A stretch of DNA of 64,000 nt from Naegleria gruberi (Eukaryota): NCBI GenBank assembly GCA_000004985.1, contig GG738908.1; one strand, given 5' to 3'. Below the pieces are notes generated by a model. The model saw nothing but the letters and a program-made list of their open reading frames with translations, was not told the DNA's origin and made no database searches. Below, piece after piece: positions 2,341 through 44,144 of this stretch (positions within the stretch are counted from its first letter, which is position 1; the number at the start of each line of letters is the position of its first letter). A program made the translations under genes and the position numbers.

Positions 2341-5070
2341 ATGGCAGGAGATTTTCGGAAGGCGTTTTATGCTGCGGAAAAAGGCAAAATTGATGAATTT
2401 AATAATTATTTTAATGAACAAGACGTTAATAAATCACAGAGAGGTGTTACCATGTTATATATTGCTTGCCAAAATGGACATTTAGAAATTGTTAAATTAT
2501 TATTATCATGTAAAACAATTGATGTTAATTTGAGTGTAAGTATTTTAATATTTAATTTAATTTTATATTTATAATATTAGACTGTAAGTATTTCAATGTT
2601 TAATATTTTTTATATTTAAAATATACATTAGACTGTAAGTATTTGATATTTAATATTATTTTATATTTTTAATATTAGTATGTAAGTATTTTAATATTTA
2701 ATATTTTTTATATTTTTAATATTAGTATGTAAGTATTTAATATTTAATATTATTTTATATTTATAATATTAGACCGTAAGTAATTAATATTTAATTTGAT
2801 ATTATTTATGTTTATAATATTAGTTTGTAAGTATTTAATTTTATTTATATTAATAATATTAGATGGTAAGTATTTTAATATTTAATATTATTTTATTTTT
2901 AATATTAGACACCATTATACATTGCGTGCCACTATGGACATTTAGAAATTGTTAAAGAATTACTTCAACATCCAAATATTGAAATAGATAGCGAATTGTC
3001 AGTGAATGGAATTAATATTCAAACAATTAAAAGTGACATGGAAAAGGAACAACAAATATTACAAGAACAAATAGAACAAAAAAAGTTGAAACAACTAGAA
3101 ATGGAAAGATTAGAAAGAAAAAGAATTACAAAATTAGAAATGGAAAGAATTGAAAAAGAACGTTTATTAAAAATAGAAAGAGAAAGAAAAGAATTTGAGA
3201 AAAAGCAACCATTCATAATCACATCTGAAACACTTTCAAAATTATGTTCACTCAACCAACAAGTAGATAATAATAGAAGAAAAGTTGAAAAACAATTTGA
3301 ATCAATTCAATCATTTTCTTCTTCTATTCAAATTGAGAAAGAATTTCAAGATGAATATTTAAGAATTTGTGATAATTTAAATAATTGTTGTAATTTAATT
3401 GAAAAATTAACAAGTAATAATTATAATATTGAAAATAATGAACATTTGTCAACTATTAATAATTTAATGAATAATATTAGAACTATATTGGAATTTATTA
3501 ATAATCAAAAATATTTATTTAAATTACAATCTTATTCAGAAGTATTAAATGAAAAATTAGAATTATTTAATGAATTTAATTCTCAATTTATTAAACAAGA
3601 ATTATTTGACAATATTGAAATGAGTGAACAATCTATTAAGAATATAAAAAGTATTAATATTGTTCCAACTCATAATAAATTTGGAAATGAAACTAAAACA
3701 ATATTACAACAAGTTACAAAACAATTATCAAATATTGTAAACTCTATCAATAATTGTAATGAAATTGATTTGACACAATTTTCAAATAATTTACAAAAAG
3801 CAATGGAATTATCAGAACAAGAAGAATTATATTTAAATAATATATTGTCAAATTGTAAAATATTAATTTCAGACAATGATCAAATGAATATTTTACAATT
3901 ATATAATTATTATCAAAAACAAGAATTAAATTGTAAATTATTAATTCAAGAAACAATTCCATATATAATTGAAAAATATGAAATGTTACAAAATATTATA
4001 AATATTATGAATAATTATTCAAATTTATCTGAACAATTTAAAACTATTCAAAGACAAAAAACAAGAATTNAAGAAATTTAATTGTGANNNNNNNNNNNNN
4101 NNNNNNNNNNNNNNNNNNNNNNNNNNNNNNNNNNNNNCATGAAAATTTGAAAATTGAAATTTTAAATCTAGAAAAGGAAAAGAAACAATTTTCAAATTCA
4201 AAGTCAAAGAAAAGTGAAGAAATTTCAAAGAAATTACAAAATTTGAAACAAAAAGAAATTGAAATTGAGAAGATGGAAAAGGAAATTAAAGAATCAAAAT
4301 CCAAACAATTAACAATTTCACTTCCAAGTTATTGGAAAAGAAACACATTCCAAACTTATTCGAAAAGATATTACATTATTGATGTTACACAATATTTAAA
4401 AGATACAATGCAAGAAATTATGAATGTATCGTGTAATTCTGCAACACTTGGATCTGGAAGAGATCAATTATTAAGAATTAATTATTCTAAATTAATTGTT
4501 TCAAGTGTTTCAAGAATTGAAAATTCAACACTTTTCACTTCATTCAAATCAAGAATGAATCATTTAATTTCATATCAAGATTCAATTAATTCACTTCAAG
4601 TTCAAACTGAAAATATTTCAAAAACATCAAAAACATTTGAATGGATGAAAACAATTGGATTAAATTCTAATATGAATGAAAAATATTTATGGCATGGAAC
4701 AAAACCTGAATTTGTGAATACAATTGCAGAACATGGATTTGATGAAAGAGTTGCAAATTTAAATGGATTATTTGGAGCAGGTATTTATTTTGCAGAATAT
4801 TGTTCAAAGAGTGATCAATATTGTACACCTGATCATTCAAATGAATATACTCTTTTATTATGTAGAGTTGTAATGGGAAGACAAATTCATTTCACAAAAC
4901 AAGTGATGAATAATCAGAGAAGACCACCTGAAATTTCAGGAAGTAATAATAGAGTTTATGATAGTGTTATTGGTCAATCAAATACTTCAACTAATTCATA
5001 TAGAGAATTCATTGTCTATGATAAATGTCAATGTTATCCTGAATTTATTATTAAATACAAGAGACAATAA
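2341..5070 (+). CDS. Ankyrin-repeat / coiled-coil / PARP catalytic domain protein (tankyrase-like architecture). Exon 1 is 2341..2535, the intron is 2536..2908, and exon 2 is 2909..5070. Exon 2 is interrupted by the assembly gap 4088-4137 with an apparent frame change across the gap.
   Basis: aaaaaaaATG at 2341. Exon 1 encodes the ANK repeat 'TMLYIACQNGHLEIVKLLL'. Exon 2 opens with a second ANK repeat 'TPLYIACHYGHLEIVKELL' in the same frame as ORF 2996..4081, which is K/E-rich coiled coil ('LEMERLERKRITKLEMERIEKERLLKIERERKEFEKK'). After the gap, ORF 4084..5070 carries a PARP catalytic signature: 'YLWHGT' (His), 'GIYFAEY' (Tyr), 'YREFIVYD' (Glu), i.e. an H-Y-E triad. Confidence 0.6.
2536..2908 (+). 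repeat. Intronic tandem array of about 8 mini-intron-like units (~45-50 nt each, GTAAGT...TTAG) separated by 3-nt spacers.
   Basis: Direct reading shows units beginning gtaagtat at 2536, 2584, 2635, 2682, 2729, 2776, 2827 and 2866, each ending 'aatattag' or 'acattag'. The spacers are ACT, ACT, TAT, TAT, ACC, TTT, ATG. The last acceptor ...ttag|ACACCATTATAC gives in-frame 'TPLYIAC'. Confidence 0.8.
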
Positions 5071-5705
5071 GGAATCAATCAAAGAATTATTAATTTCACT
5101 TCACTCCCTGATGTGAGAGAATTACATCTCAACACAAAATAAATATCAACAAATTTATAAAGTTATGGATCGTGAATTTGGTGAAAAGAATTAAGGAAGG
5201 CTGCAATTAGTTCTCTGATGGAGTAAAACTCTCCGTATGGAAGTACAACGCTTTGTTGTAATTTGACTTTAAATTTCTACTAATTAATTGCATTGTAAAA
5301 CTAATCGATCTCAAATAAATCCTACAAATAGGATGAATCAGATTCGAATTGAGGGTGTTGAAGACGTTCCTGATTACAGTTTCAGTGAAATTTCAATCAA
5401 AACATTTCGTTGCTGATTAGGAAATGCTTTTCTTAGTCATTTCGAATATTTCTTTACTAATGGCCAATGAAAGAAACACAACAGAAGTAGGAGAAACAAA
5501 GTACTACCCAAGAGGTGGTATCTTTAAGCCATCAACGTAATATCCGACTTTACCCGCTCTTGATGGGATGAAAGTAAGAAAAAATGTCGAAACGAAATGA
5601 GACGAAACTCTCGCTCATTCAACACAACAAATCATCAGACGAAACTTATCAAGTTCATATAAAATCATCATCAACGGAGAAAGGAAACATTTCAAGATTT
5701 TTCTT

Positions 5706-7703
5706 TTGGATTCGGAAGAAATTAATTCGAATAAGAAAATTTGGATTTCGTTTATAATAGTTTCGATTATGTTCGGAGGATTAGTTTTATTATTAATGAA
5801 TGATTCATTCATTACGAACGGATCAGATTTTATTCGAAAGGATTCGTTTGAAATTTCTACATCCAATCACGAACTGAAATTAATAGAAATTTATTCCAAT
5901 ACCACTTCTTCTACTGAAATACGAAACGATTCATCAATTTGTCATCCAATTTTATTAGAAATGGGAGCCGAAAGTTCTTTAGGTCTTTGTGATGATCAAG
6001 TTTCGTCCAAAACCATCGCAGCAATCTTTCTCTTTGCCCACACCATCCTCGTTATTGTCACTCTCTCTGGCCTTCTCTACAAATTATGGAAATTACGAAA
6101 CGACATTTCGAATAGAGAAGCCAACTTTCTAACCATTACCAGAAATCCACTTTTAATGACATTAGGCTCCTTAATTGGATGGAGCTATAGTCTTGTAATG
6201 ATGGGAAGAGTACTCATTGGACGAAAGGTTTATCCATGTTTCTTATTCATGTTTGTTTTCTATATGGCAGTTCCTGGATTGGCAAGTACGATCATTATCA
6301 GATGTTTGAGATTGATAATTTTATCGAGGATGAATGAATTGAAAGTCAAGATTGGGAATAGAGAGATGAAGAGTGTGCCGAATCAAGTGAATGATAAATT
6401 GGAAAGGAAATATTCGAATGTTGTTGTGGATGGTGGAGTGGTGGTTGAAAGTGAATTGAAAGTTGTGAGCTCTGTAACGAGTACGAGTACTCAGCAAGAT
6501 GCAATTAATTCTTCTCTTGACAATGTGTCAGAAAGTGAGAGTGCTTGCACAATTTCAGCAATTCCACCAAGTATAGAGCCACAATCAATGAATATTACAT
6601 TGGAAGATTCTGTGAGTGTAAATCAACCTGGATATTCGAAATGGGAATCATTTGAAAGAAGATGGCTCATGAAAATGTACAAATTTCTAATTAGTTCCAA
6701 ATTCATAGCCATCTGGTATGCATCCATTGCAATTATACATATTGGAATTTACATTATCATTGGAGCATTTGATTATTTCAATTTCGAGAATGGTGTTAAC
6801 AATTTTTCCATTGAAGAACGACGATCCATGTCATTTGTGTACGATACTCGAATTTTCTCAGTTGGAGGATGTGGAATTAGTTTCAATTCAGTTTTAATTT
6901 TTGTCATTTATTTGGCAGTTTATGGAATTGTGGCCATTGTCATGTCCATTTATAGTTTTCTGGTCAAGAAGGATATTTGGAAAGTTAAAACAGAGCTCAT
7001 CCTCATTACACTCAATTGGTTAATCTTTTCAATTCTGTACGGAGTTTTTTCAATCATTGAAGTGTTGAGCATTCTCGTTGATTATTTCTTTCCAACAGTT
7101 GCTTTTATTTTACTGGCATGTGTCATTGACACGTTTGTTTCATGCACCATTCCAGTATTTTTCTATCAACGTTCCAAGAACTCTAAAGTAGCCAACACTC
7201 GACAAGTTTCCACCTCCAACATGCTTTCTAAAATACTATTTGATAAGAAATGGAATGAGGAATTCTTAATCTTTTCAGAGAAGAGTTATTGTCCAGAAAA
7301 TTTAATGTGTTGGAATTCTATTGAGATTTTTAGAGAATCTTCTGAGAAATTGAGAAGGAAACATATAATTAGTATTCTGGAAACTTATTTATTGGAAGGA
7401 TCTCCTTTGGAACTCAATGTTCAACGTCAAATATTTAATAATTTTGAAAATATCACGTCAATTGTCAGATCAATCAAAGCTCAAGAAGCAGAATTGAAAC
7501 GCTTAGCAGAGGAGAATAATAAGGTTGTGGGAACAGCTGTGGTAGCTCTGCAACGTAGAAAGTCAATGAAAATCATTCAAATTCCAACAAATTTATTCGA
7601 TTCCATTCAGAAACATTGTGAAATTAATATGGCTGATTGTTTTGATAGATTTTATGTGCAACATTGGCAGAAATTATGCATGGAATTGGATGTAGAGGAG
7701 TGA
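5706..7703 (+). CDS. 7TM-RGS protein: N-terminal Cys-containing ectodomain, 7 predicted TM helices, C-terminal RGS domain. Single exon. The first in-frame ATG is at 5769; the true start is uncertain.
   Basis: Seven hydrophobic helices (e.g. 'IAAIFLFAHTILVIVTLSGLL', 'CFLFMFVFYMAVPGLASTIIIRCL', 'FFPTVAFILLACVIDTFVSCTIPVFFY'). The RGS box is 'FSEKSYCPENLMCWNSIEIFRESSEKLRRKHIISILETYLLEGSPLELNV' (the S-x-EN-x-x-FW-core pattern of RGS domains). The architecture is like plant AtRGS1. Confidence 0.6.
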   Translation: MDSEEINSNKKIWISFIIVSIMFGGLVLLLMNDSFITNGSDFIRKDSFEISTSNHELKLIEIYSNTTSSTEIRNDSSICHPILLEMGAESSLGLCDDQVSSKTIAAIFLFAHTILVIVTLSGLLYKLWKLRNDISNREANFLTITRNPLLMTLGSLIGWSYSLVMMGRVLIGRKVYPCFLFMFVFYMAVPGLASTIIIRCLRLIILSRMNELKVKIGNREMKSVPNQVNDKLERKYSNVVVDGGVVVESELKVVSSVTSTSTQQDAINSSLDNVSESESACTISAIPPSIEPQSMNITLEDSVSVNQPGYSKWESFERRWLMKMYKFLISSKFIAIWYASIAIIHIGIYIIIGAFDYFNFENGVNNFSIEERRSMSFVYDTRIFSVGGCGISFNSVLIFVIYLAVYGIVAIVMSIYSFLVKKDIWKVKTELILITLNWLIFSILYGVFSIIEVLSILVDYFFPTVAFILLACVIDTFVSCTIPVFFYQRSKNSKVANTRQVSTSNMLSKILFDKKWNEEFLIFSEKSYCPENLMCWNSIEIFRESSEKLRRKHIISILETYLLEGSPLELNVQRQIFNNFENITSIVRSIKAQEAELKRLAEENNKVVGTAVVALQRRKSMKIIQIPTNLFDSIQKHCEINMADCFDRFYVQHWQKLCMELDVEE

Positions 7704-7870
7704 GGAGGAGAGGACTAGAGTTTGTTTTTATGAATTACCCCATTAAGATGACTTGTGGCCATAGCTGTCACTTGTCCATATTTGTAATTTATTAATATGC
7801 ACTTTGCGAAGACGAACGAAGAATAAGGTGGAAGATCTGATGCGCCAAGTCCGTCAAAATATTGAAAAAA

Positions 7871-9792
7871 ATGCCCAACTGCCATTCACTTGGCAGCTGC
7901 CACACGTCACTTGACATTCAAAAACCAAAAACAAGATTTTTCATCTCTCTATCTCTTCTCATCATGATGACGATGAATTTTCCAACAAACGCATCAATTT
8001 TGAATACAACCATCATCAACACTGAATTACGAAATGATTCGTCAGTTTGTCATCCAATTTTATTAGAAATGGGAGCCGAAAGTCAGTACGGATTATGTGA
8101 TGACCAAACACCTTCAAAAGCACTTGCTGGAATCTTTCTCGGATTGCACACAATTTTGGAAATAGTTTCGTTTATTGGACTTTCGTATAAATTATGGAAA
8201 GTAAAAAGGTCAACCAGCAATGAAGCCAATTTTCTGACCATTACCAGAAATCCACTTCTCATGATTTTGGGCTCATTGGTCGGATATATCTATAGCATTA
8301 TCATGATGGTTAGAATTTTAATTGGACGAAAGATTTTTCCATGTTTCTTATTCATGTTTTGTTTTTATATGGCAGTTCCAGGATTGGCAAGTACGATCAT
8401 TGTCAGATGTTTGAGAACTATTACATTATCGAGGATGAATGAATTGAAAATCAAGATTGGTAATCGAGAAATGAAAGATTTGAAAAATGTCGAGTTGAGT
8501 GTGATGAGTTCTGTACAGATTGATGCAGTTTCGTCTAGTACGGAAACTTCTGAGAGTAATGTTTCACAAACTAATGTTTCATTTTCGGTTGAAAGTAATG
8601 CTACTGGATCACATTCTGGAACTTTGGAAAGTGGAAATCAAATGGTCAACCAGCAAGTTACTTTGGAAGATTCTGTCAGTGTGAATCAACCAGGAATTAC
8701 CAAATGGGAGAATTTTGAAAAGAAGGTCTTGATGAAGGTTTACAAATTCCTGATCAGTACCAAATTTGTAGTATTGTGGTATTCAATGATTGCCATCGTT
8801 CACATTGGAATTTATATCATTATTGGCGCAGTTGACTATGTGAATTATGATAAGAATATTGCACTTTCGTATGCTGAAAAAAAGTCCTCGTCCTTTGTTT
8901 ACGATACCAGAATATTCACAACCAATGGATGTGGTATCAGTTTCAATAGTGTTCTCATTATTATTGCCTATTTGGTGTTTTATGGAAGTTTTGCAATTGT
9001 GATTATTGGATATAGTTTTTTAATTAAGAGAGATATTTGGAGAGTCAAGATTGAGTTGTATATTATTGTGATTTGTTGGATTTTATTGATTATTCTGTAT
9101 GCTGTCTTTTCAGTTATTGACATTTTGAGTACCTTGTAAGTAATATAGTAGTAGTAGTAGAATGATTAACATTTGACAGGGTTGATTATTATTTTCCAAC
9201 CTTTTTGTTTATTTTGATTGGCTGTATGATTGATACATTCATGAGCGTGACAGTTCCTGTCTTTTTCTATCAAAAGGCAACAATAGATAATAGATATTCT
9301 CAATCTTCTAGAACTAACATACTTGTCAAGTGTCTATTCAATAAGAAGTGGAATGATGAATTTTTACTCTTCTCTGAAAAGAGCTATTGTCCAGAAAATT
9401 TGATGTGTTGGAATGCCGTTGAGCAATTTAAGAGAGCTCCTGAAAAACTGAGAAGAAAACTCATTAAGGTCATTATGGAGACCTATCTTATCGAAGGTTC
9501 TCCACTCGAACTCAATATTCAACGAAATATGTTCAATAATTTTGAAGATATTTCAGCCATCACTGATTCTATTAAGAGACAAGAGAATGAAATGAAAAGA
9601 CTTGTCGCAGAGAATAATATCGTGGTTGGAACGATCAAAAAGAGAAGATCTATGAAAATGATTTCAATTCAACCAAATATTTTGGATAGAGTTCAGAAAC
9701 AATGTGAAGTGAACATGGTTGACTGTTTTGATAGATTTTATATTCAGTATTGGCAAGATATGTGTAAAGATTTGGAATCTGATGAGAATTAA
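7871..9792 (+). CDS. 7TM-RGS protein, tandem paralog of the upstream gene: join(7871..9135, 9180..9792), with one 44-nt phase-2 intron.
   Basis: Colinear similarity to 5706..7703 ('NDSSVCHPILLEMGAES..GLCDDQ', 'NFLTITRNPLLM', 'CFLFMF.FYMAVPGLASTII.RCL', RGS box 'FSEKSYCPENLMCWNAVEQF'). Donor tt|GTAAGT is at 9136 and acceptor ...tttgacag| at 9179. The join gives '...IDILSTL'+'VDYYFPTFLF', matching paralog 1 'LSILVDYFFPTVAF'. Confidence 0.65.
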
Positions 9793-10097
9793 TGTTGTGA
9801 TGAAATATGAAGAGGAAAATAGGATTTAAAATTTGGTGAAAATACGTTCGAAGTGATTGACAAGCTAACGAGCTCCAAATATTTATTTGAAATATAAGGT
9901 AATTGAATTACATCATTGGCTTGTGGTCTTTCTGTGGAATTCTTATTCAAAATGAGAGAACAATTTAATTAATTCTTTCGAATAGAGGTTAGGTTCTTCC
10001 ATTCTTTCAGTAAGCCATTGTTGAACGTGTTCTGGATCTTTGGTAAGATATTGTTCACTAGTAGAGACAAAAATAAATAAAAATATTTTTATACCTT

Positions 10098-13000
10098 TTA
10101 CATATTTGTTTCATGATCATCTAGCCATTGATAATTGAGTTCCTTTTCCTGTTCCATAATTTGAATCATTTCGGTACTGCTGATTCTTCCATTCTCTCCA
10201 GCAGAAGATCTTCCACTTCTTCTGTACATTTCCAAATCAATTAAATAGCATTGCAATACTGTATCAATAACAGTTTGGAAAATTGTAATAAACAATGAGC
10301 TGACAAGTACACTCATAGCAAAAACAATAACCAGCAACATAAAGCTATGATTCACATCAAGCCATTCCTTTCCTGAAAAGACAATTTCAAACAAGCCATA
10401 ATTACCTTGTTCATTGTAGGCATTGGTTATCTTTCCAACAACACTTGTGAATTCCTCAAGTGATTTATCTTGGGCATGAATGATAATATAAGCCACAGCA
10501 ACACTAATAATGGCGACTAACATTTTCATACAAAACATGATCCAATCGGTAATCCATTCCAGAACTGCAATAAATGTAATATTCTTACGCATCAGCTTGG
10601 TAGAACTGAGTGAGGAGTGGAAGAATGTTGTACCAAAAATGGCACAGTGAATCAAACTGTTTCTAGCAAAGAATTCCATGAATTTTTCAATGTACTTGAG
10701 AATAACAAATAGAATTCTATGGATAAATCTTGTTAAGAAATTATTTCTAAAATTGTTAATAAATCTAACAATAAAGAATTGACTCTCAACTGCTTGTTCA
10801 ACAGTGCTCTTTTCACTTTGATATCCCATCAAGGAAAGGGATGTCTTGATAACCAGTATCAAATATTTCACAAGTCCAACAAATAAACTAGCAAGTGCAA
10901 TACTTCCTGCATTGTAGTACATGACAAATAATGAAGCTTGAAGAACTGGAAGCTTTAGACACATGAGCGTCTTTTCATAGCTGTCAAATATTGCAGAGCT
11001 TGATTCACCTCTTCTTGCTGCTGTTATAGTTCCAGAAACGTTTCCAAACTTGAAATAGAAGGTAGAGGTAACACGAGCAACAACAATAGTAACAAAACTC
11101 AACAAGAATTGAGTAATCCAGAAGAAACCAAGCAAGTAGTATGCAAACCATCCTTTCAAGAGATGGGACTGCAAAGTTAAAATAAAGCTTGTTGGATTGG
11201 AGAGTGATTGCATCTTTTCAGTAAGGGTATTACCTGTGGCAATATTACTTGTAACTTTTCCAGCCAAAGATGAAGCATCTGTAATTCCAGCGGCTGTCAG
11301 TTCATTGGTGAGCAAGAGGGCAACAACACAGAACCACCAAACACAGAAAATAATGCCTCCAATAAAGATTGCAATAGGCAGTACTGTAAACATTTGAGGC
11401 ACTGTCGTAATAATCATGGCACTCTCCTTAATGATAGAAACTGATCTGGATAATGTCTTTTTCCAATAATTCCAGAAAATAAATGTGAACAACAAATTTG
11501 TAAAGAGTAAGAATAAACCACTGCCCAAGTAGAGAGAATTTTCCCAAGTTAAATCAGCAATAGTGGAAGAGAATTTCTGGGACCATCTTGATGAGCCAGA
11601 TACATTGAAATGTAGATCAGATCCTCCTTCAACAAGTAACATGATGGACAAGGAGAACCATGCAAGAATGAGTAGGGCAACGGTACCATAAATCAAAGGC
11701 TTGGCCAATACCCTCAACAAGACAACTGTAATAAATGATACAGCAGCAGTAATTGTAACTGAGATGAGAATAATTTTCCAACTATTATACAACATGGTAA
11801 CACTCTTAATGATAAACTTTTCCAAGAAGGAAGGCATCAAACCAGATAATTCTTGAATATTAATTTCCTTTCCAATATTTGAAATGGTTGGTAAATTATC
11901 AATATAAGGACCAATAGTTGCACTGAAATATGAAGCAGGTGATATAGTAGTAATATGTCGTATCAAATTGGAGAGGGCTGACTTTTGTTGTTCAAACATT
12001 TCTTCAGTCATTTCGAAACCTGAAATTGTTTGAAGACTGGACTTGGTATTCAAATTGTTTTGCAATTTAGCCAAATTAGCTGCTTGTTCAAAGAATGCAA
12101 ATGAAGACGGTGTAGGAATGCAACGTCCCATCACTGAAAAGTAGGTTTGATCTTGAGGAACTTCGAAATAGACAGGTTCTGCTTTCTTTTCCTTGGAGAG
12201 GAAGAAACGTTTAGCAGCACACAAGTTCTTCTTTTTGATAATGACTTTGGTGACATTTTCTGTAATGGTTTCATTTCCTACAATCTTTTTAACTTGTTCG
12301 GTAATTTCAGTCTTATCGAACCAGGTTTTTCTCAAGGAGAGAGGGCATTCATCCGATACAAATGACAAACTTTCTGTTGATTGAGATGAGAATTCATCAC
12401 GAACATCAAGGTCCTTATTGTTCAAATTCTTTGAATTATCAATAGTCTTGACAGCACTTGGGCAACTCTCCACACAAATACCTCCATGTTTAATCCAAGT
12501 TTCAAATGGTACTGTTGATTTGGCAAGGTCATACTTTTCCTTTCCAAAGAATGCATCCTTTTCATTCATAATCCACAAATATTTACGTGATGAAAGATCT
12601 TCCTTCCAATAGTTTTTATCAACCATAGAATCAGCAAATTGAAGTGCTCTATTTTGAATAGATAAACTATCGAGAGATCCATCATCTTTAGAATAATCAA
12701 CACCACAAGCTCTTCCCAAATAATCAATCGGATAGAAGAAACGTGTCATTTCCCTCTTTGATGGAATAAAGTAATTAAAGAATGAAATATTGTCGTCTAA
12801 TGATGATGGATTGTTGTTGTTACTATTTACAGAGGAAGTAAGAAGGTCGGCAACACTGGCTTTTAAAAGATTCATCTCTGCCCCTTGATTATGTTCCTTC
12901 AATTGTGCTGAAATGTACTCTCTTCTCTTTACTATAGCCTCCAAAGCAATAGCAATCATACCAATACAGAAGAGGATAAACACAATAAGGAAGAGAATAT

Positions 13001-13370
13001 CTCTACATGGACGATTTTGATGGAATTCATAAGTGTACTTTTTAACGAGGAGACTATTACTCTTTCTATTGTTATTACCAAGAAGTGATTCTTCATCAGA
13101 GTCTGAATCAAAGTCTAGTGATGGTTTAGGAATGGTAGCAGAAGGTCTTCCGCCATTGTTATTATTATGAGATGATGTGTTATTGTTATTATTTGCAGAG
13201 TTTGTAGTTTTGTTAGTTGTATGATTGTTATTAGTTGAAGTTTGTTGTTGTTGGTTTGTTTGATTAATCTTTGTATTGACCAATTCAACTTCCCTCGATA
13301 GATATTCTAACAACTCTTCTGGAGAAGGAGTTGGATATAAATTGTTATTATTATTGCCTTGTTGACTCAT
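10098..13370 (-). CDS. Large polytopic membrane protein, probably of the choline-transporter-like (CTL/SLC44) family. It has an N-terminal Asn-rich cytosolic tail, TM1, a Cys- and N-glycosylation-rich ectodomain, then about 9 TM helices. Single exon.
   Basis: 1090-aa ORF without stops. The topology (TM 'ILFLIVFILFCIGMIAIALEAIV', a ~400-aa loop with many Cys and NxS/T sites, then repeated helices such as 'LKGWFAYYLLGFFWITQFLLSFVTIVVARV') is typical of CTL proteins. The family call rests on topology plus weak motif resemblance and is unverified. Confidence 0.45.
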   Translation of the reverse strand: MSQQGNNNNNLYPTPSPEELLEYLSREVELVNTKINQTNQQQQTSTNNNHTTNKTTNSANNNNNTSSHNNNNGGRPSATIPKPSLDFDSDSDEESLLGNNNRKSNSLLVKKYTYEFHQNRPCRDILFLIVFILFCIGMIAIALEAIVKRREYISAQLKEHNQGAEMNLLKASVADLLTSSVNSNNNNPSSLDDNISFFNYFIPSKREMTRFFYPIDYLGRACGVDYSKDDGSLDSLSIQNRALQFADSMVDKNYWKEDLSSRKYLWIMNEKDAFFGKEKYDLAKSTVPFETWIKHGGICVESCPSAVKTIDNSKNLNNKDLDVRDEFSSQSTESLSFVSDECPLSLRKTWFDKTEITEQVKKIVGNETITENVTKVIIKKKNLCAAKRFFLSKEKKAEPVYFEVPQDQTYFSVMGRCIPTPSSFAFFEQAANLAKLQNNLNTKSSLQTISGFEMTEEMFEQQKSALSNLIRHITTISPASYFSATIGPYIDNLPTISNIGKEINIQELSGLMPSFLEKFIIKSVTMLYNSWKIILISVTITAAVSFITVVLLRVLAKPLIYGTVALLILAWFSLSIMLLVEGGSDLHFNVSGSSRWSQKFSSTIADLTWENSLYLGSGLFLLFTNLLFTFIFWNYWKKTLSRSVSIIKESAMIITTVPQMFTVLPIAIFIGGIIFCVWWFCVVALLLTNELTAAGITDASSLAGKVTSNIATGNTLTEKMQSLSNPTSFILTLQSHLLKGWFAYYLLGFFWITQFLLSFVTIVVARVTSTFYFKFGNVSGTITAARRGESSSAIFDSYEKTLMCLKLPVLQASLFVMYYNAGSIALASLFVGLVKYLILVIKTSLSLMGYQSEKSTVEQAVESQFFIVRFINNFRNNFLTRFIHRILFVILKYIEKFMEFFARNSLIHCAIFGTTFFHSSLSSTKLMRKNITFIAVLEWITDWIMFCMKMLVAIISVAVAYIIIHAQDKSLEEFTSVVGKITNAYNEQGNYGLFEIVFSGKEWLDVNHSFMLLVIVFAMSVLVSSLFITIFQTVIDTVLQCYLIDLEMYRRSGRSSAGENGRISSTEMIQIMEQEKELNYQWLDDHETNM

Positions 13371-15502: not shown

Positions 15503-18500
15503 TTATTGAATGAAAATGAAAGCAAGAATCAATGAAAACAATACAATGAAATAGAATTTGGAGGAAGATGCTTGGTTGACTGATTGTTGAGCTAAAGTTG
15601 GTGAAATGGCAAAATCAGTCAAGTGAACAGTTCTACATTTGACTCTGGTATTACTAATCTTGATAGATTCCAATCCAATTGATGAGAATTGTGATGATTG
15701 AGTATTGTAGAATTGACACAAACCCATCATTGTAGAATTCATTAAAGAAATGTCAACTTCAAACTCAATTGGGGAAGTGAGGTCTGAAATTTCGAGTTCA
15801 GTACCATTAGAAAGAATGTTAATTGAAATAATGGAAGAAACCAAATCAGTCTTGATGTGAGAGTAAATATTTTGTGAAATGATTGATAAGGAAATTGAAA
15901 CAGAAGCACTGGAATCTAATTGATATTTGGAAGAAAGCAACTTTTTCAAAGAATCCTTTGGTAAGCTCAAGGAAGAAAGTCCAATTTGAGAAGGTGAGAA
16001 ATTAAAGTTGTCAATTGTGCTCTTTACAACAGCTGTCTTGACAAGATTTGAAACTGAGACGCTCGATTGTCCATCAACCAATGACATGGCTGCTCCAACT
16101 TGACTAGCATCAATGACCTTCTTTAATTGAGAAGCAAAATTAGAATTTGATGTGGAAACAGTTGAAACCAATTGAGAAACTGTCTTGACAATGGAAGTTC
16201 TATCAGTAGATTGTAAGTTTTGCTTCAAAGATGTAGAAATACTCGACAATAAATTCAAAGTCTTTTGAGCTGTGTCTGATGTAATTTCTGATGGTTGATT
16301 GGTTAATCTTTCCAAAAGTCCAATCTTTGCGGTGTCAGAATCAGTTGAAGCAATAATTTGAGTCAAAATGTTACTTCTGATTGATGTCTTTTCAGTAGTT
16401 GTAAGCTTGGAATTGAGTAATGAATTGGCAATTTCCAAAGAACTCAATGAAGTGCTGCTAATCAAAGAGTTGACAAGTGAGCTAACTTCTTGAGCTGACA
16501 TGGTAGTAGTTGGATCTTGAATGGTCAAAACTTTAGTTTTTTCAACTGTTGTAAAAGCAGCATCTCTGACTGCAAAGAAAATTGTCACTTGTCCAGAGCT
16601 GAAAGTAGGAAGAGTAAATGTTGGGGATGTTGAGCTAGCACTCAATTCAGCAACATAAACTTTGCTATTTTCTTGAGTATAATAACCAAATGAATAGAGC
16701 ATGGTAAATGATTCTGGATCCGTGGCAACCAAACTAGCTCTTAAACTTGTCTTGACAGCAAGTGCAGAACTAATTTCCAATCCACTAGTAGCATTGACAA
16801 CCTTGAATGATGAAATAGTTGGTGATCTGTTAATGGTAATCTTTAAATCTTTTGAAACGGATACAGATCCAGTAGCAGAAACACGAGTAGCATTCAATCT
16901 GAAAGTATAAGTTGCTCCTTCTGTTAAACTATTTGCCTTAATGGCTAAATCTTTCTTGTCAGTTCCAGCAACTGAAATAGTTTCCAAATTGACTGCAGTT
17001 CCAGAAACTTGAGTCCACTTGTAGCTCAATGAAGAATACGCACTCAATGATGAAATTGTAGATTTGAAAACAATGTCCATCGATCCAGGAGTATAAACAG
17101 TTTGTCCAGAGGTGAAAGTTGGTGAACTGATAACAGCATCGAATGACAAATCACAACTTCCATAAACATAATTGGCTGGACAGGTACAAATATTTGGACC
17201 AGTACATTGTCCAAATCCACAACCACCCTTAGAGGAACAATCAAATACGTTACAATCACTTCCAGTATATCCTGACTTGCAAGTACAAACATTAGGTGAA
17301 GTACATGTACCATTTCCATTACAATTATTGAGAGTGGTACAAGTTGGAGTGTTACAACTAGCTCCTGTATATCCAGATTGACAAGTACAGACATTAGGAC
17401 CAGTACATTGACCACGATTCATGCAATTCGAAACCAAATTACAACTATATTGATTACAGGTACTTCCCTTATAACCAGCTTTACATAAACAAGTATTAAT
17501 GGCAAGACAATCACCATTTCCATTACAATTATTCACTCCAGCACATGATGGAGTTTCTCCAGGACGAACAGCTCTCAAGTAATTGCTAGTACATGCAGAG
17601 TTTTCACCCTGAGTGAGAAGATAGCCAACCGATGGATAATAATACTTGTATCCATTTGAATCTACTGCCTTAATATAATATTTTCTACAAGCAGTTCCAG
17701 AAGAAAGTCTAGTAGTATTATATTCGAAAGTTCCTGCATTCAAAGACGAATCAGTATACATACTCGATGTTGGAATACTCATTGGATATTCCACATCATT
17801 AATAAAAATGGAAACATTCAATGGAGCTACTCCCTTTCCCAAATCTGCCTTATGATAATAATTAGCAAGGAATGTAACTGTATCTGTGGCAAACGTAATA
17901 TGTGTAGCAGCAACGATTGGATTTGAAATACCATGTGAACCTGAGGCAAAATTCTGTGTCCAATAATCACTGAAACCTGTGGCTGCAACCTTTGGATAAT
18001 GTCCAACTCCAAGAAGGGTATATGAGCTTCCAAGAATGTTGGCTCTGTGTCCATCAGAATTAATCCAAGCCATGGTTACAGAAAGAGGACTTGTCTGTCC
18101 AGCTGCAATATTTTCAGCCATTGCTGCTGGTTTAGTGTAAAAAGTAGCAACTCTGGTGAAGGTTAGAGTTCCATCACATGAATTATGTTGAAAACAAGGT
18201 ACAGTTGCCATGTCTTTCGAATGGAATCGTCCAGATTCTACCAAATTGAAATGTTCGAAAAGTGGAGGCAAACCAGTGGTTTCCAATGACTTTTCTGCTT
18301 GGAATAAATTCAAGAATCTGGTCTTGAATCCTGAAGGAGACATTCTAGCCCAATTTGTTAAAACATGGACCGTCTTTTCGACATATCTCGAATAAGTGTA
18401 AACTAAATCAGAAAGTGCATTCACACCAACTTGATCACCAATTCCATAAAATTCCCAATTACCATTATCTGTGCTGCCATTGTTGGTTGAAGCACCACCA

Positions 18501-18685
18501 TCATTAGCAAAAGTGGCCATGACAGCACGTTTGTTTTTGGCAAATTTCAAATTGCTGTCAAATGCCATCGAAGGAGGATTTTGTGAAATGACAGATAGAG
18601 GTTCATGTTCTGCCAACACCAGAAAGAGGGAGGATAATACCAACACTACCAAGAGTGCATAATGCAACCTGTTACTCAACAACAT
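15503..18685 (-). CDS. Giant secreted protein: signal peptide, CAP/SCP (PR-1-like) domain, about 5 tenascin-type EGF repeats, and a long Ser/Thr-rich (mucin-like) tail. Single exon.
   Basis: Signal peptide 'MLLSNRLHYALLVVLVLSSLFLVLA'. CAP motif 'SDGHRANILGSSYTLLGVGHY' (compare 'GH[RY]xNIL...GVG' of SCP-like proteins). EGF repeats 'CNGNGDCLAINTCLCKAGYKGSTCN', 'CMNRGQCTGPNVCTCQSGYTGASCN', 'CNGNGTCTSPNVCTCKSGYTGSDCN'. The C-terminal ~500 aa are S/T-rich. Confidence 0.6.
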   Translation of the reverse strand: MLLSNRLHYALLVVLVLSSLFLVLAEHEPLSVISQNPPSMAFDSNLKFAKNKRAVMATFANDGGASTNNGSTDNGNWEFYGIGDQVGVNALSDLVYTYSRYVEKTVHVLTNWARMSPSGFKTRFLNLFQAEKSLETTGLPPLFEHFNLVESGRFHSKDMATVPCFQHNSCDGTLTFTRVATFYTKPAAMAENIAAGQTSPLSVTMAWINSDGHRANILGSSYTLLGVGHYPKVAATGFSDYWTQNFASGSHGISNPIVAATHITFATDTVTFLANYYHKADLGKGVAPLNVSIFINDVEYPMSIPTSSMYTDSSLNAGTFEYNTTRLSSGTACRKYYIKAVDSNGYKYYYPSVGYLLTQGENSACTSNYLRAVRPGETPSCAGVNNCNGNGDCLAINTCLCKAGYKGSTCNQYSCNLVSNCMNRGQCTGPNVCTCQSGYTGASCNTPTCTTLNNCNGNGTCTSPNVCTCKSGYTGSDCNVFDCSSKGGCGFGQCTGPNICTCPANYVYGSCDLSFDAVISSPTFTSGQTVYTPGSMDIVFKSTISSLSAYSSLSYKWTQVSGTAVNLETISVAGTDKKDLAIKANSLTEGATYTFRLNATRVSATGSVSVSKDLKITINRSPTISSFKVVNATSGLEISSALAVKTSLRASLVATDPESFTMLYSFGYYTQENSKVYVAELSASSTSPTFTLPTFSSGQVTIFFAVRDAAFTTVEKTKVLTIQDPTTTMSAQEVSSLVNSLISSTSLSSLEIANSLLNSKLTTTEKTSIRSNILTQIIASTDSDTAKIGLLERLTNQPSEITSDTAQKTLNLLSSISTSLKQNLQSTDRTSIVKTVSQLVSTVSTSNSNFASQLKKVIDASQVGAAMSLVDGQSSVSVSNLVKTAVVKSTIDNFNFSPSQIGLSSLSLPKDSLKKLLSSKYQLDSSASVSISLSIISQNIYSHIKTDLVSSIISINILSNGTELEISDLTSPIEFEVDISLMNSTMMGLCQFYNTQSSQFSSIGLESIKISNTRVKCRTVHLTDFAISPTLAQQSVNQASSSKFYFIVLFSLILAFIFIQ

Positions 18686-28352: not shown

Positions 28353-31300
28353 ATGTCATCACCACAACATGCAACCCTGCTTCTCGCCTTTTTNNNNNNN
28401 NNNNNNNNNNNNNNNNNNNNNNNNNNNNNNNNNNNNNNNNNNNNNNNNNNNNNNNNNNNNNNNNNNNNNNNNNNNNNNNNNNNNNNNNNNNNNNNNNNNN
28501 NNNNNNNNNNNNNNNNNNNNNNNNNNNNNNNNNNNNNNNNNNNNNNNNNNNNNNNNNNNNNNNNNNNNNNNNNNNNNNNNNNNNNNNNNNNNNNNNNNNN
28601 NNNNNNNNNNNNNNNNNNNNNNNNNNNNNNNNNNNNNNNNNNNNNNNNNNNNNNNNNNNNNNNNNNNNNNNNNNNNNNNNNNNNNNNNNNNNNNNNNNNN
28701 NNNNNNNNNNNNNNNNNNNNNNNNNNNNNNNNNNNNNNNNNNNNNNNNNNNNNNNNNNNNNNNNNNNNNNNNNNNNNNNNNNNNNNNNNNNNNNNNNNNN
28801 NNNNNNNNNNNNNNNNNNNNNNNNNNNNNNNNNNNNNNNNNNNNNNNNNNNNNNNNNNNNNNNNNNNNNNNNNNNNNNNNNNNNNNNNNNNNNNNNNNNN
28901 NNNNNNNNNNNNNNNNNNNNNNNNNNNNNNNNNNNNNNNNNNNNNNNNNNNNNNNNNNNNNNNNNNNNNNNNNNNNNNNNNNNNNNNNNNNNNNNNNNNN
29001 NNNNNNNNNNNNNNNNNNNNNNNNNNNNNNNNNNNNNNNNNNNNNNNNNNNNNNNNNNNNNNNNNNNNNNNNNNNNNNNNNNNNNNNNNNNNNNNNNNNN
29101 NNNNNNNNNNNNNNNNNNNNNNNNNNNNNNNNNNTATTGATGGTATCAATTCTTTCACAATTACTGGCTCTACATTTGCAAACAATTCCAAATTACACAT
29201 GACAACTGTTTTCAGCTCTACCTTGAGAGGTTTGACTTTTGAGGGAAATGAAAATGTTCTTTCTGCGAAAGGAATTGGTTCTTTTACATTGGAGCATTCA
29301 AATTTTACTCGCAATGGTAATCCAATTTATATTTCAGGAAATCAATTGACAAATCAATTTAGAAAAATTAGTTTTTGTTTATTTGAGGACAATTGGTCAA
29401 CCAGCAATGGTCTTATAACATTGGAACAGTTTCCCACACATGTGGAATTTAACAATTTCAGAAATAATTGGGCAGTGAATGGAGGAATAATTTATGCAAC
29501 TAGTTCCATAATTACTTTGGATAAAAATCAGTTTGTGGATACTTATGCAAGATTCATTGAAGGTTGTTTAGTTGATAATTGTGGAAATGGAGGAATTGCC
29601 TATATTTCTAATACTATTTTGTACATGTCCAATCTCATTATTCAAAATACTCAAGCAATTAGAGGAGGAATTGTTTATTCTGAGGGAAATTCTCGAATTC
29701 AAACCCAAAATTGTGATATTTCAGATAATATTGCTTCTTTGGCTGGTAATTTATTTTACTTTGGAGATGTTATTGATTTTAATGCCCAAAATTATTCGAA
29801 ATCTGACCTGAGTTCGAGGAAAACAACTCGAGCACTTTGGAGAACGGAATCTAGTCAACCTTACGATAATCAACGAATTGCCATCCAACCCGGGCAAACA
29901 ATACAATTGGATTTTGAGTATTTTGACATGTTTGACAACAGATTCAATAGAACAAATTCTGCTCCAATTATTAAGGCAAGTGATTCATCCAACATTCTTG
30001 TATCCCTCGTTTCAATTGATCCACTTTCCAATACTGACTTTAAATTCTTCTTGCAAGTGTCAGAAACTTCAAAAAGCTCAAATATTTCAGTATATCTCCC
30101 ATTCCATGACTTTACATTTGAGATTGATATTGATATTATTGGATGCCCTTTTGATTATGGTTTATCACCACTTTTAAATTCACACTACAACGTGTGTGTC
30201 TATAGAGGTTATATTATAATTGTATTCTCCTCTATTGGCATTGCAATCATTCTACTGGTTGCAATTTATTTATTGATCTATGTTGTTAAGAGATTACTCA
30301 AATTGAGAAAGAAGGAAATGACTGAAAAGGAAATTGCACAAAAGATTATTGATAAGAATTTTGTTTTTTCTATCAATACTGATAATGAGCACACTCCATT
30401 ATTATCAAAACTGGAAGTTGCCAAGATTAGTAATATCTTAATTCCAATTGAGGATATTGAAATCATCAAAAGAATTGGAGAAGGAGCTAATGGTACTGTA
30501 TACTTAGCTAAATGGCAAGGAAATCGTGTAGCTCTAAAAAGTTTAAAATTCGAAAGGGATAGCACTGACTTTGAAAATGAAGCATCTCTCCTTAATAATT
30601 TGAGACATCCTTCTATTGTGAGATTTTATGGAATTGTAGTGTCTTCTTCAGTTAAATACATGGTTACAGAGTTTGTGGAAAATGGAAGTTTGGATGCAGC
30701 CATTCATAATTCCAAAATTGGAAAGAAGAAACTTGATTTACAAACAAAATTACAAATTTTGAGAGGAATTGCAAATGGAATGAACTATCTTCATAATTTG
30801 AAAACTCCATGTCTTCACAGAGATTTGAAATGTCAAAATATTCTTCTCAATTCCAACATGGAACCAAAGGTTACAGATTTTGGATTGTCAAAATTGACTT
30901 TAAATTCAATGACATTGACTTGCAATATTGGAACAGCTCTTTACATGGTAAGTTTTCAAATTTAAGAGAGTTAAACCGAGTCAATCATTGTAAAGTCTCC
31001 TGAATTATTTGGAAGTGGTTACAAAATTTCATACAAATTGGACGTTTACAGTTTCTCCATCATCATGTACGAATTATTCTTTGAGGAAACTCCATTCTTT
31101 AGCTCATCAGCCAAGATGAGAAAATTTATCATTTCATCCACTGAACAATCACCAGAAGATGATCATGATACAATGAATTTTGGTTTTGCAATTCCAGTAA
31201 AAGTTTCGAAAGGAGAACGGCCAATGCTTCCCTGGACTAATGATGAGGAATGTGAAATGTGGATTAAGGAATTTATAGAACCCTATGAAGGAGGAGGAGG

Positions 31301-42800: not shown

Positions 42801-44082
42801 AAACTGTACTGTTATTGACAATGATCAAACCAGACAAAACTCAACAATTTGTAAATGTAACGAAGGATTTGATGGGCTGTATTGTCAAGAAAAGAAGTCA
42901 TCAGGAAATGGTGGAACTGTTGCAGCTGTTGTCATTGTTGTGTTGCTTTTCATTTGTTGTTTGATTGCTTTCATAGCAGTTGGTGGTTTTGTTTATTACA
43001 AGAAACGAGCAAGTTCCAAATCAGAGGAATTTGAGAATTTGATTCCAAAATCTGTTAACGACGATTGGACTTTGAGAACTGTTATTCCTCCAGAGGAGGC
43101 AACTGTGAAAAGTACAGCCTCTTCTGTTAAATCTGAAAATAGCTTTATACGGTCAATTAGAAAGCAACTGGGTAGTTCAAGTACAACATCTTCTGTATCA
43201 ACCATTAACACAAGAGATCATTTCCATATTAGAGATAAAGAATATGTGAAATCAAAGAAATTGGGATCAGGTGCAAGTGGAACAGTTTTCATGTTTGATG
43301 AGTTGACCAATAAGGAACAAGTTGCTGTGAAAATTATTGAAGTTTTAAATCCAAATGGAAGCGAATTTAAGGAAGTTGTGAACATGTTTGAATTGAGTGA
43401 AGAAGCAAATCCTCACATTGTTCCAATTCTAGGATGTACAATGGTTGAAAATGGAGGATATATTTGTATCTTGATGCCATTATACAAATGTGATTTGAGA
43501 AATTGGATGTATTCCAATAAGGAGACGGTTCCAATCGAAATAATTGTCGAAATTGTGAAACAAATTGCATCAGCACTTCAATATCTCCATTCTAAGAACA
43601 TGGTACACAGAGATTTGAAACAAAGTAATATATTTGTTTCAAAATCACCTGATCTTTCAAAGAATAATGTGAATGTTTCATCTTTCCAACTTTGTGTTGG
43701 AGATTGGGGATCTTCAAGATATCAAACAAGATCTTCTTTAACTGCTTATGAAGGAACAATTCAATACAGTTCACCAGAGTCAATTGTAAAAGCAGAATTT
43801 TCACCAAAAAGTGATGTTTGGAGTCTTGGATGTATTTTATATCAATTATTATCAGCAGATTACAATACTTGTTTGATGAGAGTGAAACAAACCTCAATGA
43901 ATGACCAATCAGATGTTCAAATCATAGGAAATGTTGAAAAATTCTTTTCAAAACGTTCAGATCATTCACACAAACTTTACAAAATCATTTGTGATTTAAT
44001 GTTGGAAATGTTGAGATTTAATCCAGAGGAGAGAATTTCCACAGATGAAATTGTCCAAAAACTCTCAATGAACAATGTTTAA
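39822..44082 (+). CDS. Receptor-type protein kinase with NHL-repeat beta-propeller ectodomain, about 8 tenascin-type EGF repeats, a TM helix and a cytoplasmic kinase: join(39822..41772, 41822..44082).
   Basis: aaaaaaaATG at 39822 with N-terminal signal anchor 'GLITLMIVVIIMMLVVV'. NHL repeats 'LIISDTGNNRIRKID', 'FDFADTNNNRIRRIQ', 'LYIASQGNHKIMKY'. Donor g|GTATGT at 41773 and acceptor ...ctactag| at 41821 give '...VYIAG'+'DWGNRAVRKVF'. EGF repeats 'CNNHGSCVNGKCVCDSGWRGNLNCGTFSC'. TM 'TVAAVVIVVLLFICCLIAFIAVGGFVYY'. Kinase 'GSGASGTVFM', 'VAVKII', 'HRDLKQSNIFV', 'GDWGSS'. Confidence 0.7.
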
Positions 44083-44144
44083 TAATATTATTTAATAATA
44101 AATTAAATATTTACGAATATTTATAAAATTTTGATAAGAAAAAA

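What the first reader, a model, noticed from the sequence alone, without database searches (positions are those of the whole stretch)
5706..9792. Tandem pair of 7TM-RGS genes with a conserved Cys-containing ectodomain. One is intronless and one has an intron.
Two head-to-tail paralogs (5706-7703 and 7871-9792) share colinear similarity over an N-terminal extracellular segment ('RNDSS[IV]CHPILLEMGAES..GLCDDQ'), seven TM helices and a C-terminal RGS box. A 7TM receptor fused to an RGS (GTPase-accelerating) domain is the AtRGS1-type architecture, a self-contained receptor-GAP that is patchily distributed in eukaryotes. The downstream copy has a 44-nt phase-2 intron placed exactly between TM6 and TM7 ('LSTL|VDYYFP'), where the upstream copy is continuous. 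This marks an intron gain or loss after duplication. A lineage-specific expansion of receptor-GAPs with a conserved ligand-binding-like ectodomain is worth functional attention.
Basis: partly seen in the sequence, partly recalled or inferred. Interest (0 to 1): 0.55.

Follow-up and report, generated by a model that had tools for sequence, protein, structure and literature searches.

The report
Tandem Naegleria 7TM-RGS receptor-GAP genes
Two neighbouring genes of the amoeba Naegleria gruberi each encode a seven-helix membrane receptor fused to a domain that switches G proteins off; this protein type is already known and greatly expanded in Naegleria, so the pair is real but ordinary.

Summary
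The window is Naegleria gruberi. Gene 1 (ATG 5769, stop 7703) is identical to the annotated but uncharacterised NAEGRDRAFT_53117. Gene 2 (7871-9135 plus 9180-9792, with a 44-nt phase-2 GTAAGT..CAG intron at 9136-9179) is 59% identical to gene 1 and colinear with it.

The TM6/TM7 intron sits at the same site and phase in six related genes, four of them in N. lovaniensis. It is therefore ancestral, and gene 1 lost it rather than gene 2 gaining it.

- The "ectodomain" is only a ~25-residue two-cysteine cap before TM1.
- Gene 1 may have an unrecognised 5' exon, so "intronless" is doubtful.
- The 7TM shows no detectable sequence homology to the AtRGS1 7TM.

Gene 2 is absent from the protein collections searched. 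7TM-RGS proteins are already described in Naegleria (28 in N. fowleri, with GAP activity shown for some). This is a new member of a known kind, of low interest.

The parts
5769..7703 (+). Gene 1, 644-aa 7TM-RGS protein; identical to NAEGRDRAFT_53117 / XP_002671100.1 (single-exon model as annotated)
   Evidence: P0001 is identical to the window translation. RGS Pfam 27.8 bits. AF2 gives 7 TM helices plus an RGS bundle.
5601..5768 (+). In-frame, stop-free stretch upstream of the gene 1 ATG. It encodes ...NKKIWISFIIVSI, which completes an N-terminal hydrophobic signal or anchor. Probable coding sequence fed by an unrecognised 5' exon.
   Evidence: Stop-free in 0.7% of shuffles. Candidate exons and introns: ATG 5424/5460 + GTAATA 5537..AG 5638/5653/5683, or ATG 5568 + GTAAGA 5574..AG 5696. 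Unconfirmed.
5925..5999 (+). Gene 1 conserved extracellular cap NDSSICHPILLEMGAESSLGLCDDQ (aa 53-77), with Cys58 and Cys74 and an N-glycosylation sequon
   Evidence: C58, H59, P60, C74 and D76 are invariant in the 7-sequence alignment. omega 0.22. pLDDT 69-93.
6000..7160 (+). Gene 1 7TM core (TM1 aa 78 to TM7 aa 464). It includes a ~100-aa disordered Ser/Thr-rich second intracellular loop (aa ~203-290) and a Cys157 (top of TM3) / Cys368 (ECL2) pair.
7188..7685 (+). Gene 1 RGS domain (aa ~474-639), interrupted by a ~45-aa helical insertion (aa ~563-608) that contains RRKSMK
   Evidence: Pfam matches profile positions 2-79 of 117 only. The C-terminal helices align to RGS alpha7-9 by motif. Foldseek hits RGS16/RGS9/RGS1 with probability 0.99. 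E510, N550 and R627 are near-invariant.
7704..7870 (.). Intergenic spacer between the two genes
   Evidence: Stops in all three frames. Gene 2 has its own ATG and signal-like segment.
7871..9135 (+). Gene 2 exon 1: signal-like N-terminus, Cys cap (8033-8107), TM1-TM6
9136..9179 (+). Gene 2 intron, 44 nt, GTAAGT..GACAG, phase 2, in ECL3 between TM6 and TM7. It carries an in-frame TAA if retained.
   Evidence: Sequence. Same site and phase in L001, L002, L004A, L004B, L005 and L006.
9180..9792 (+). Gene 2 exon 2: TM7 plus RGS domain (with insertion containing KRRSMK) and the stop codon

Best explanation
Both genes encode functional plasma-membrane receptor-GAPs of the heterolobosean 7TM-RGS family.

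Proposed mechanism:
- A signal or anchor sequence places a short, glycosylated, disulfide-stapled N-terminal cap outside the cell.
- A GPCR-fold seven-helix bundle, closest in shape to class C receptors, spans the membrane.
- A cytoplasmic C-terminal RGS domain binds GTP-loaded G-alpha subunits and accelerates their GTP hydrolysis. N. gruberi has more than 30 G-alpha subunits.
- By analogy with AtRGS1 and the tested N. fowleri 7TM RGS proteins, an extracellular cue sensed by the 7TM and cap would alter GAP access, for example through conformation or phosphorylation and internalisation. That would release or restrain G-protein signalling.

Evolution: the pair arose by a recent, N. gruberi-lineage tandem duplication. 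Gene 2 kept the ancestral intron between TM6 and TM7, and gene 1 lost it.

What is shown: architecture, fold, conservation of GAP contact residues, purifying selection, and intron polarity.
What is inferred: membrane location, GAP activity of these two proteins, and ligand regulation.

For: The residues aligned to RGS4 E87, N128 and R167 (E510, N550, R627) are near-invariant across 40 family members, and the TM3-ECL2 Cys pair is invariant. Positive-inside charge bias and N-terminal sequons fit an N-out topology. dN/dS is 0.24 overall, 0.13-0.23 in the TM core and 0.18 in the RGS N-terminal half.

A 7TM-only profile retrieves 167 proteins from 1.84 billion, and 37 of 40 sampled carry RGS. N. 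fowleri 7TM RGS domains are experimentally GAPs for Nf G-alpha subunits (PMC9283941).

For intron polarity. In the NJ trees, (gene1, gene2) has 100% bootstrap support overall and 91-100% in each partition.
Against: No expression or biochemical data exist for these two genes. The RGS domain carries a ~45-aa insertion and matches only two-thirds of the Pfam profile contiguously. No ligand is known for any protist 7TM-RGS. The 7TM has no sequence-level match to any solved GPCR or to Pfam 7TM families. The AF2 class C resemblance beats class A by only ~2 Z units. Intron loss in gene 1 also requires an independent loss in the L003 lineage.
Confidence: 0.75

Rival explanations
1. The 7TM part is only a constitutive membrane anchor. 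The proteins are unregulated, membrane-tethered GAPs rather than ligand-sensing receptors.
For: The conserved extracellular surface is small: a 25-aa cap and short loops. No ligand is known for protist 7TM-RGS proteins (PMC9283941 discussion).
Against: The extracellular cap, the ECL2 Cys and the ECL3 LVDYYFP motif are among the most conserved positions in the family, and omega for the cap is 0.22. That is unexpected for a simple anchor. A full GPCR fold is retained.
Confidence: 0.15
2. The RGS-like domain is a G-alpha-binding effector or scaffold module without GAP activity, like the RH/rgRGS domains of RhoGEFs, GRKs or sorting nexins. In that case the proteins would be G-alpha effectors or receptors that pre-couple G-alpha.
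For: The domain has a moderate Pfam score and an insertion. 5 of 40 family members also touch the RGS-like (RhoGEF-type) model weakly. SNX25 RGS is among the Foldseek hits.
Against: The Glu, Asn and Arg aligned to RGS4 E87, N128 and R167 are near-invariant. The best sequence and fold matches are canonical R7/R4 RGS domains. Related N. fowleri 7TM RGS domains are true GAPs and sensitive to the switch-I G-to-S mutation (PMC9283941).
Confidence: 0.08
3. One copy, most plausibly the unannotated gene 2, is a decaying duplicate or pseudogene.
For: Gene 2 is absent from every protein collection searched. It is slightly more diverged from the L003 outgroup than gene 1 is: 45% against 50% identity.
Against: The ORF is intact across 625 codons, with canonical splice sites and an exact colinear junction. 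omega is 0.24 with dS ~1.3, so there has been long-term purifying selection on both copies. All family-invariant residues are retained.
Confidence: 0.02

Closest known systems
Naegleria fowleri 7TM RGS family (28 members; Bosch, Jeck & Siderovski 2022, PMC9283941)
   Same: Same genus. Same architecture: N-terminal 7TM and C-terminal RGS. N. fowleri homologues of this very subfamily were retrieved (FDP41_012977 and FDP41_012045). RGS domains of four other members were tested and act as selective GAPs on Nf G-alpha subunits.
   Different: The four characterised Nf proteins have large EGF, lectin or GPS ectodomains. This subfamily has only a short two-Cys cap. Neither window gene nor its direct orthologues has been tested. 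Whether FDP41_012977 is counted among the 28 was not checked.
Arabidopsis AtRGS1 and plant RGS1 proteins
   Same: 7TM plus C-terminal RGS. A short N-terminus with two conserved Cys just before TM1. A conserved Cys in ECL2 and a [KR]D[IL]W motif before TM6. The RGS domains are homologous (hhalign 98% on full length).
   Different: 7TM-only profile comparison is not significant (probability 0.3%, E 0.18-0.21). The Naegleria proteins have a ~100-aa ICL2 loop and an insertion inside the RGS domain. Some plant RGS1 proteins touch Pfam 7tm_3, but the window genes do not.
Fungal class VI GPCRs (GprK/AoGprK-type 7TM-RGS; PMC10794492) and Trichomonas 7TM-RGS (cited in PMC3971589, PMC9283941)
   Same: The receptor-GAP fusion architecture.
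   Different: None of the 20 named proteins I looked up among the hits to the 7TM-only profile was fungal or from a parabasalid. Homology of the 7TM parts was not tested directly.
Class C GPCR 7TM domains (mGlu, GABA-B, GPR158/156, GPRC5D)
   Different: No Pfam 7tm_3 hit and no sequence match to solved structures. There is no Venus-flytrap or cysteine-rich ectodomain. The margin over class A is small.

Membership tests
RGS domain (Pfam PF00615) | HMM score above the curated gathering threshold | tested here: met
   27.8 and 32.5 bits against a cut-off of 23.9. 37 of 40 family members are also positive.
RGS domain (Pfam PF00615) | All-helical RGS-box fold | tested here: met
   AF2 helices 474-639. 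Foldseek hits RGS16, RGS9 and RGS1 with probability 0.96-0.99 and target TM-score ~0.6. The domain is interrupted by a ~45-aa insertion.
RGS domain (Pfam PF00615) | Conserved G-alpha switch-contact residues (RGS4 E87, N128, R167 equivalents) | tested here: met
   E510, N550 and R627 are invariant in 7 sequences and at least 90% conserved in 40. Alignment to RGS7. Correspondence to RGS4 numbering is from my own knowledge of the RGS4 sequence.
RGS domain (Pfam PF00615) | GTPase-accelerating activity on a G-alpha subunit | not testable with these tools
   Shown only for other N. fowleri 7TM RGS proteins (PMC9283941).
7TM-RGS receptor-GAP architecture (AtRGS1 type) | Seven TM helices N-terminal to a cytoplasmic RGS domain in one polypeptide | tested here: met
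   AF2, hydropathy, charge bias, Pfam.
7TM-RGS receptor-GAP architecture (AtRGS1 type) | 7TM domain homologous in sequence to the AtRGS1 7TM | tested here: not met
   hhalign 7TM-only against 12 plant RGS1 proteins gives probability 0.07-0.33% and E 0.18-0.58. The weak alignment is colinear, so distant homology is not excluded.
7TM-RGS receptor-GAP architecture (AtRGS1 type) | Partner G-alpha that self-activates, with GAP as the regulated step | not testable with these tools
   N. fowleri has both fast- and slow-exchanging G-alpha subunits that engage 7TM RGS proteins (PMC9283941).
Heterolobosean 7TM-RGS family (Naegleria/Willaertia) | Significant full-length similarity to annotated Naegleria RGS-domain 7TM proteins, including family motifs (ARNP, RxLIGRKxFPC, GCG, KRDxWxxKxE, LVDYxxP) | tested here: met
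   E 1e-42 to 1e-223 to N. lovaniensis and N. fowleri proteins. Invariant columns. Profile hits named as Naegleria, Willaertia and Pharyngomonas.
Class C GPCR (Pfam 7tm_3) | 7tm_3 HMM match | tested here: not met
   No hit at E <= 1 for either gene. 1 of 40 relatives (Cavostelium) has a sub-threshold hit, E 3.7e-4.
Class C GPCR (Pfam 7tm_3) | 7TM bundle geometry closest to class C structures | tested here: met
   [not shown]
Class C GPCR (Pfam 7tm_3) | Large Venus-flytrap or Cys-rich extracellular ligand-binding domain | tested here: not met
   The N-terminus before TM1 is 77-79 aa, and only 25 aa of it are conserved. Some class C members (GPRC5, GPR156) also lack this domain.

The most novel reading that the evidence does not exclude
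This clade (Heterolobosea, at least one amoebozoan transcriptome, and unnamed environmental eukaryotes) may be an ancient, class-C-like 7TM lineage that has been fused to RGS since before these supergroups split. On that reading, its tiny disulfide-stapled N-terminal cap (CHPxLL...GLC[DP]D) together with ECL2 and ECL3 would be the actual sensor. Plant RGS1 shows faint colinear features: two N-terminal Cys, an ECL2 Cys, [KR]D[IL]W before TM6, and occasional 7tm_3 hits. It would then be a far-diverged member of the same lineage, making receptor-GAPs with a class-C-type bundle an ancestral eukaryotic signalling module.
Probability: 0.2. Interest if true: 0.45.

Novelty: new member of a known kind. 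Interest (0 to 1): 0.2.

Why it matters
The finding adds little conceptually. Receptor-GAP fusions are established in plants, fungi, Trichomonas and Naegleria, and N. gruberi is reported to carry ~229 RGS genes and more than 30 G-alpha subunits.

The practical gains are modest:
- An apparently unannotated N. gruberi gene (gene 2) and a probably truncated model for NAEGRDRAFT_53117.
- A clean, polarised example of intron loss in one copy after tandem duplication.
- A definable minimal-ectodomain subfamily whose 7TM module is almost always fused to RGS and looks class-C-like. This subfamily could be a simple subject for asking how a 7TM domain controls a fused GAP.

Tried and rejected
- The look-up of encoding contigs for P0001 returned nothing on record, so the reference gene calls around gene 1 could not be inspected.
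- Foldseek against afdb50 was unavailable, so AtRGS1 and fungal GprK models could not be compared structurally.
- Bradford et al. 2013 is not held.
- The 7TM profile against PDB sequences gave no meaningful hit.
- 'Two ORFs are one gene' is rejected. There is a stop codon plus a spacer with stops in all frames, and each unit is complete.
- 'Intron gain in gene 2' is rejected, because the same site and phase occur in six outgroup genes.
- I tested whether gene 1 and L003 are orthologues sharing a single intron loss, with gene conversion masking this. All three partitions still group gene 1 with gene 2, so this is not supported.
- No tandem repeats, Rfam families or tRNAs lie in 5000-10500.
- A recalled AtRGS1 sequence was used only as bait. 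The plant sequences actually compared are database proteins.
Full report
**What is there**

The window is AT-rich eukaryotic DNA (GC ~0.33). The ORF at 5706-7703 and the split ORF at 7862-9139 / 9205-9792 lie head to tail on the + strand.

From its first ATG (5769), gene 1 translates to a 644-aa protein. It is identical to 'predicted protein [Naegleria gruberi]', NAEGRDRAFT_53117 / XP_002671100.1 / UniProt D2VXV6. The window is therefore N. gruberi.

Gene 2 starts at ATG 7871. Its reading frame ends in TTG|TAA at 9136-9139, where a GTAAGT donor begins. Removing 9136-9179 (44 nt, ending GACAG) joins TT|G in phase 2 and continues ...LSTL-VDYYFP... to the stop at 9790-9792.

The spliced 625-aa product is colinear with gene 1, at 59% identity over 617 residues and E = 0. 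There is no gap at the junction. No further copy is in the window.

**Domain content**

Both proteins match Pfam RGS above the gathering score: 27.8 and 32.5 bits against 23.9. The match covers profile positions 2-79 of 117. The remainder of the RGS box (...FDxxQxxCExNMxDxFxRF...) follows a ~45-residue insertion.

Two AlphaFold2 models of gene 1 were made, from an 11-row MSA (pLDDT 62) and a 40-row MSA (pLDDT 79, pTM 0.76). Both give seven long TM helices: 78-111, 127-150, 157-~190, 310-342, 372-398, 406-429 and 445-464. Both also show a disordered Ser/Thr-rich loop of ~100 residues between TM3 and TM4, and a C-terminal helical bundle.

Foldseek matches that bundle to RGS16, RGS9 and RGS1 (probability 0.96-0.99).

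Lys/Arg are enriched on the predicted cytoplasmic segments (17 against 5 outside). The N-terminal segment carries 3-4 N-glycosylation sequons. Both features fit an N-out/C-in topology with the RGS domain in the cytosol.

**Conservation**

In a 40-sequence family alignment the invariant residues are R125 (ICL1), C157 (top of TM3) and C368 (ECL2). The two cysteines form the canonical GPCR disulfide pair. Near-invariant residues include E510, N550 and R627 of the RGS domain. By alignment to RGS7 and my knowledge of RGS4, these three correspond to RGS4 E87, N128 and R167, the G-alpha switch-contact and GAP residues.

The 'ectodomain' motif is real. C58-H-P...C74-x-D is invariant in the close family. 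However, it is only ~25 residues directly abutting TM1. The preceding ~50 residues are not conserved even between the two paralogues (omega 0.64) and are modelled with pLDDT < 50. It is better described as a two-cysteine cap than as a ligand-binding domain.

**Selection**

Nei-Gojobori estimates between the paralogues give dN 0.32, dS 1.31 and omega 0.24:

| Region | omega |
|---|---|
| Cys cap | 0.22 |
| TM1-3 | 0.23 |
| TM4-7 | 0.13 |
| RGS N-terminal half | 0.18 |
| ICL2 loop | 0.53 |

. Both copies have been under purifying selection for a long time, so neither looks like a pseudogene.

dS is lower in the 5' third (0.5-0.85, with exact nucleotide runs of 21-38 nt) than in the 3' two-thirds (>= 1.7). 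This may reflect partial gene conversion or nucleotide-level constraint. I did not resolve which.

**Intron history**

I fetched the loci of relatives.

The intron is at exactly the ...TL|VDY... site and in phase 2 in:
- all four N. lovaniensis paralogues examined: L004A, L004B = P0003, L005 = P0004 and L006 = P0005;
- two unnamed environmental relatives, L001 and L002.

It is absent from gene 1, from the unnamed L003 gene (P0002) and from the distant N. fowleri P0009.

NJ trees place gene 1 and gene 2 as sisters, with 100% bootstrap overall and 91-100% in each of three partitions. L003 is the next branch (98%), and the intron-bearing genes lie outside.

The intron is therefore ancestral and was lost in gene 1 after the duplication, and independently in the L003 lineage.

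Three of the four N. lovaniensis genes (L004A, L004B and L005) also have a second intron after GCGTG in ECL2. L006 lacks it, as do both N. gruberi genes.

N. lovaniensis has its own, independent tandem pair. L004A and L004B are sisters at 92% bootstrap.

**Is gene 1 intronless?**

Within the region homologous to gene 2, yes.

However, the 168 nt upstream of ATG 5769 are stop-free in frame, which occurs in 0.7% of shuffles. They encode ...NKKIWISFIIVSI, which together with MFGGLVLLLM forms a full hydrophobic signal or anchor like that of gene 2 and other relatives. There is no ATG in that stretch.

Candidate 5' exons exist: ATG 5424/5460 with a GTAATA donor at 5537, or ATG 5568 with a GTAAGA donor at 5574. 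The annotated model may therefore be 5'-truncated and gene 1 may have a 5' intron. Only transcript data can decide.

**Family limits**

A profile of the 7TM part alone (no RGS) was searched against 1.84 billion representative proteins. It found only 167 hits at E <= 1e-3.

The named hits are N. gruberi paralogues on other scaffolds, N. lovaniensis, Willaertia magna, Pharyngomonas kirbyi (all Heterolobosea), and one Cavostelium apophysatum (Amoebozoa) transcript. The rest are unnamed metagenome or Logan proteins.

37 of 40 sampled hits carry an RGS domain although RGS was not in the query. This 7TM module is thus almost always fused to RGS.

Against 12 plant RGS1 proteins (retrieved), the 7TM-only comparison is not significant: probability <= 0.33%. 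The full-length comparison reaches 98%, but through the RGS domain.

'AtRGS1-type' therefore describes the architecture and probable mode of action. It does not demonstrate family membership of the 7TM.

**What is known**

- de Mendoza et al. 2014 (PMC3971589) report 7TM-RGS architectures in many bikonts and some opisthokonts.
- Bosch, Jeck & Siderovski 2022 (PMC9283941) describe 28 7TM RGS proteins in N. fowleri. They show that isolated RGS domains of several are selective GAPs for Nf G-alpha subunits through a canonical interface.
- N. gruberi is reported to have ~229 RGS genes and more than 30 G-alpha subunits (PMC5784254, citing de Mendoza).

A tandem pair of such genes is therefore expected in this genome.

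**Small novelties**

- Gene 2 has no counterpart above 58% identity in a 5.8-billion-cluster protein collection, and no exact match. It is apparently unannotated.
- The intron polarity is resolved as a loss in gene 1.
- The subfamily is delimited, with a class-C-like predicted bundle.

**Verdict**

The feature is real and correctly interpreted, and it is a new member of a known kind. Interest is low (0.2).

Noticed in passing
window 5424-5768: The annotated start of NAEGRDRAFT_53117 (ATG 5769) is probably too far downstream. The 168 nt before it are stop-free in frame (0.7% of shuffles) and complete a signal or anchor helix. Candidate 5' exons and donors lie at 5424/5460-5536 (GTAATA) or 5568-5573 (GTAAGA).
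   Followed up: partly
window 7871-9792: Gene 2 has no match above 58% identity, and no exact match, in the 5.8-billion-cluster / 15-billion-sequence protein collections, which include the N. gruberi reference proteome. It appears to be unannotated.
   Followed up: yes
window 5925-6370 vs 8033-8470: Synonymous divergence between the paralogues is much lower in the 5' third (dS 0.5-0.85, with exact runs of 21-38 nt such as TTTGTCATCCAATTTTATTAGAAATGGGAGCCGAAAGT) than in the 3' part (dS >= 1.7). This could be a gene-conversion tract or nucleotide-level constraint.
   Followed up: partly
L004 2814-4825 and 5001-7277 (N. lovaniensis PYSW02000015.1): N. lovaniensis carries its own head-to-tail pair of the same subfamily. 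The two copies are each other's closest relatives (92% bootstrap), so this is an independent tandem duplication. Both have two introns (ECL2 and TM6/TM7).
   Followed up: yes
window 7455-7592 and 9520-9670 (RGS insertion): The insertion inside the RGS box contains a basic RRKSMK / KRRSMK motif (PKA-like RRxS). It is conserved between the two paralogues and partly in L003 (RRRRPT), but not in N. lovaniensis. It is a possible phosphoregulatory site.
   Followed up: no
protein P0148 (EukProt Cavostelium apophysatum transcript): An amoebozoan transcript has a 7TM homologous to this family plus a strong RGS domain (75 bits) and a sub-threshold 7tm_3 hit. De Mendoza et al. 2014 reported no TM-RGS in amoebozoans. 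Contamination is not excluded.
   Followed up: partly
[not shown]
   Followed up: no
window 2996-5070: The upstream neighbour is a PARP-catalytic-domain gene (Pfam PARP 86.6 bits, 4138-5067). Its reading frame is interrupted by a 50-N assembly gap at 4088-4137. Other gaps lie at 28394-29134 and 62016-64000.
   Followed up: partly
window 15506-18685, 39822-45218, 58964-60523: The window holds several secreted or receptor-like signalling genes: CAP+EGF (15506-18685, - strand), NHL-repeat proteins (39822-41780, 44145-45218), an EGF-repeat receptor kinase (41902-44079), and NHL+EGF (58964-60523). It also holds a P450, a PAS protein, a choline-transporter-like gene (10101-13370, - strand) and one tRNA-Ala(TGC) at 46587-46662 (-). 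No G-alpha gene was recognised among the ORFs of at least 250 aa that I scanned against Pfam.
   Followed up: partly
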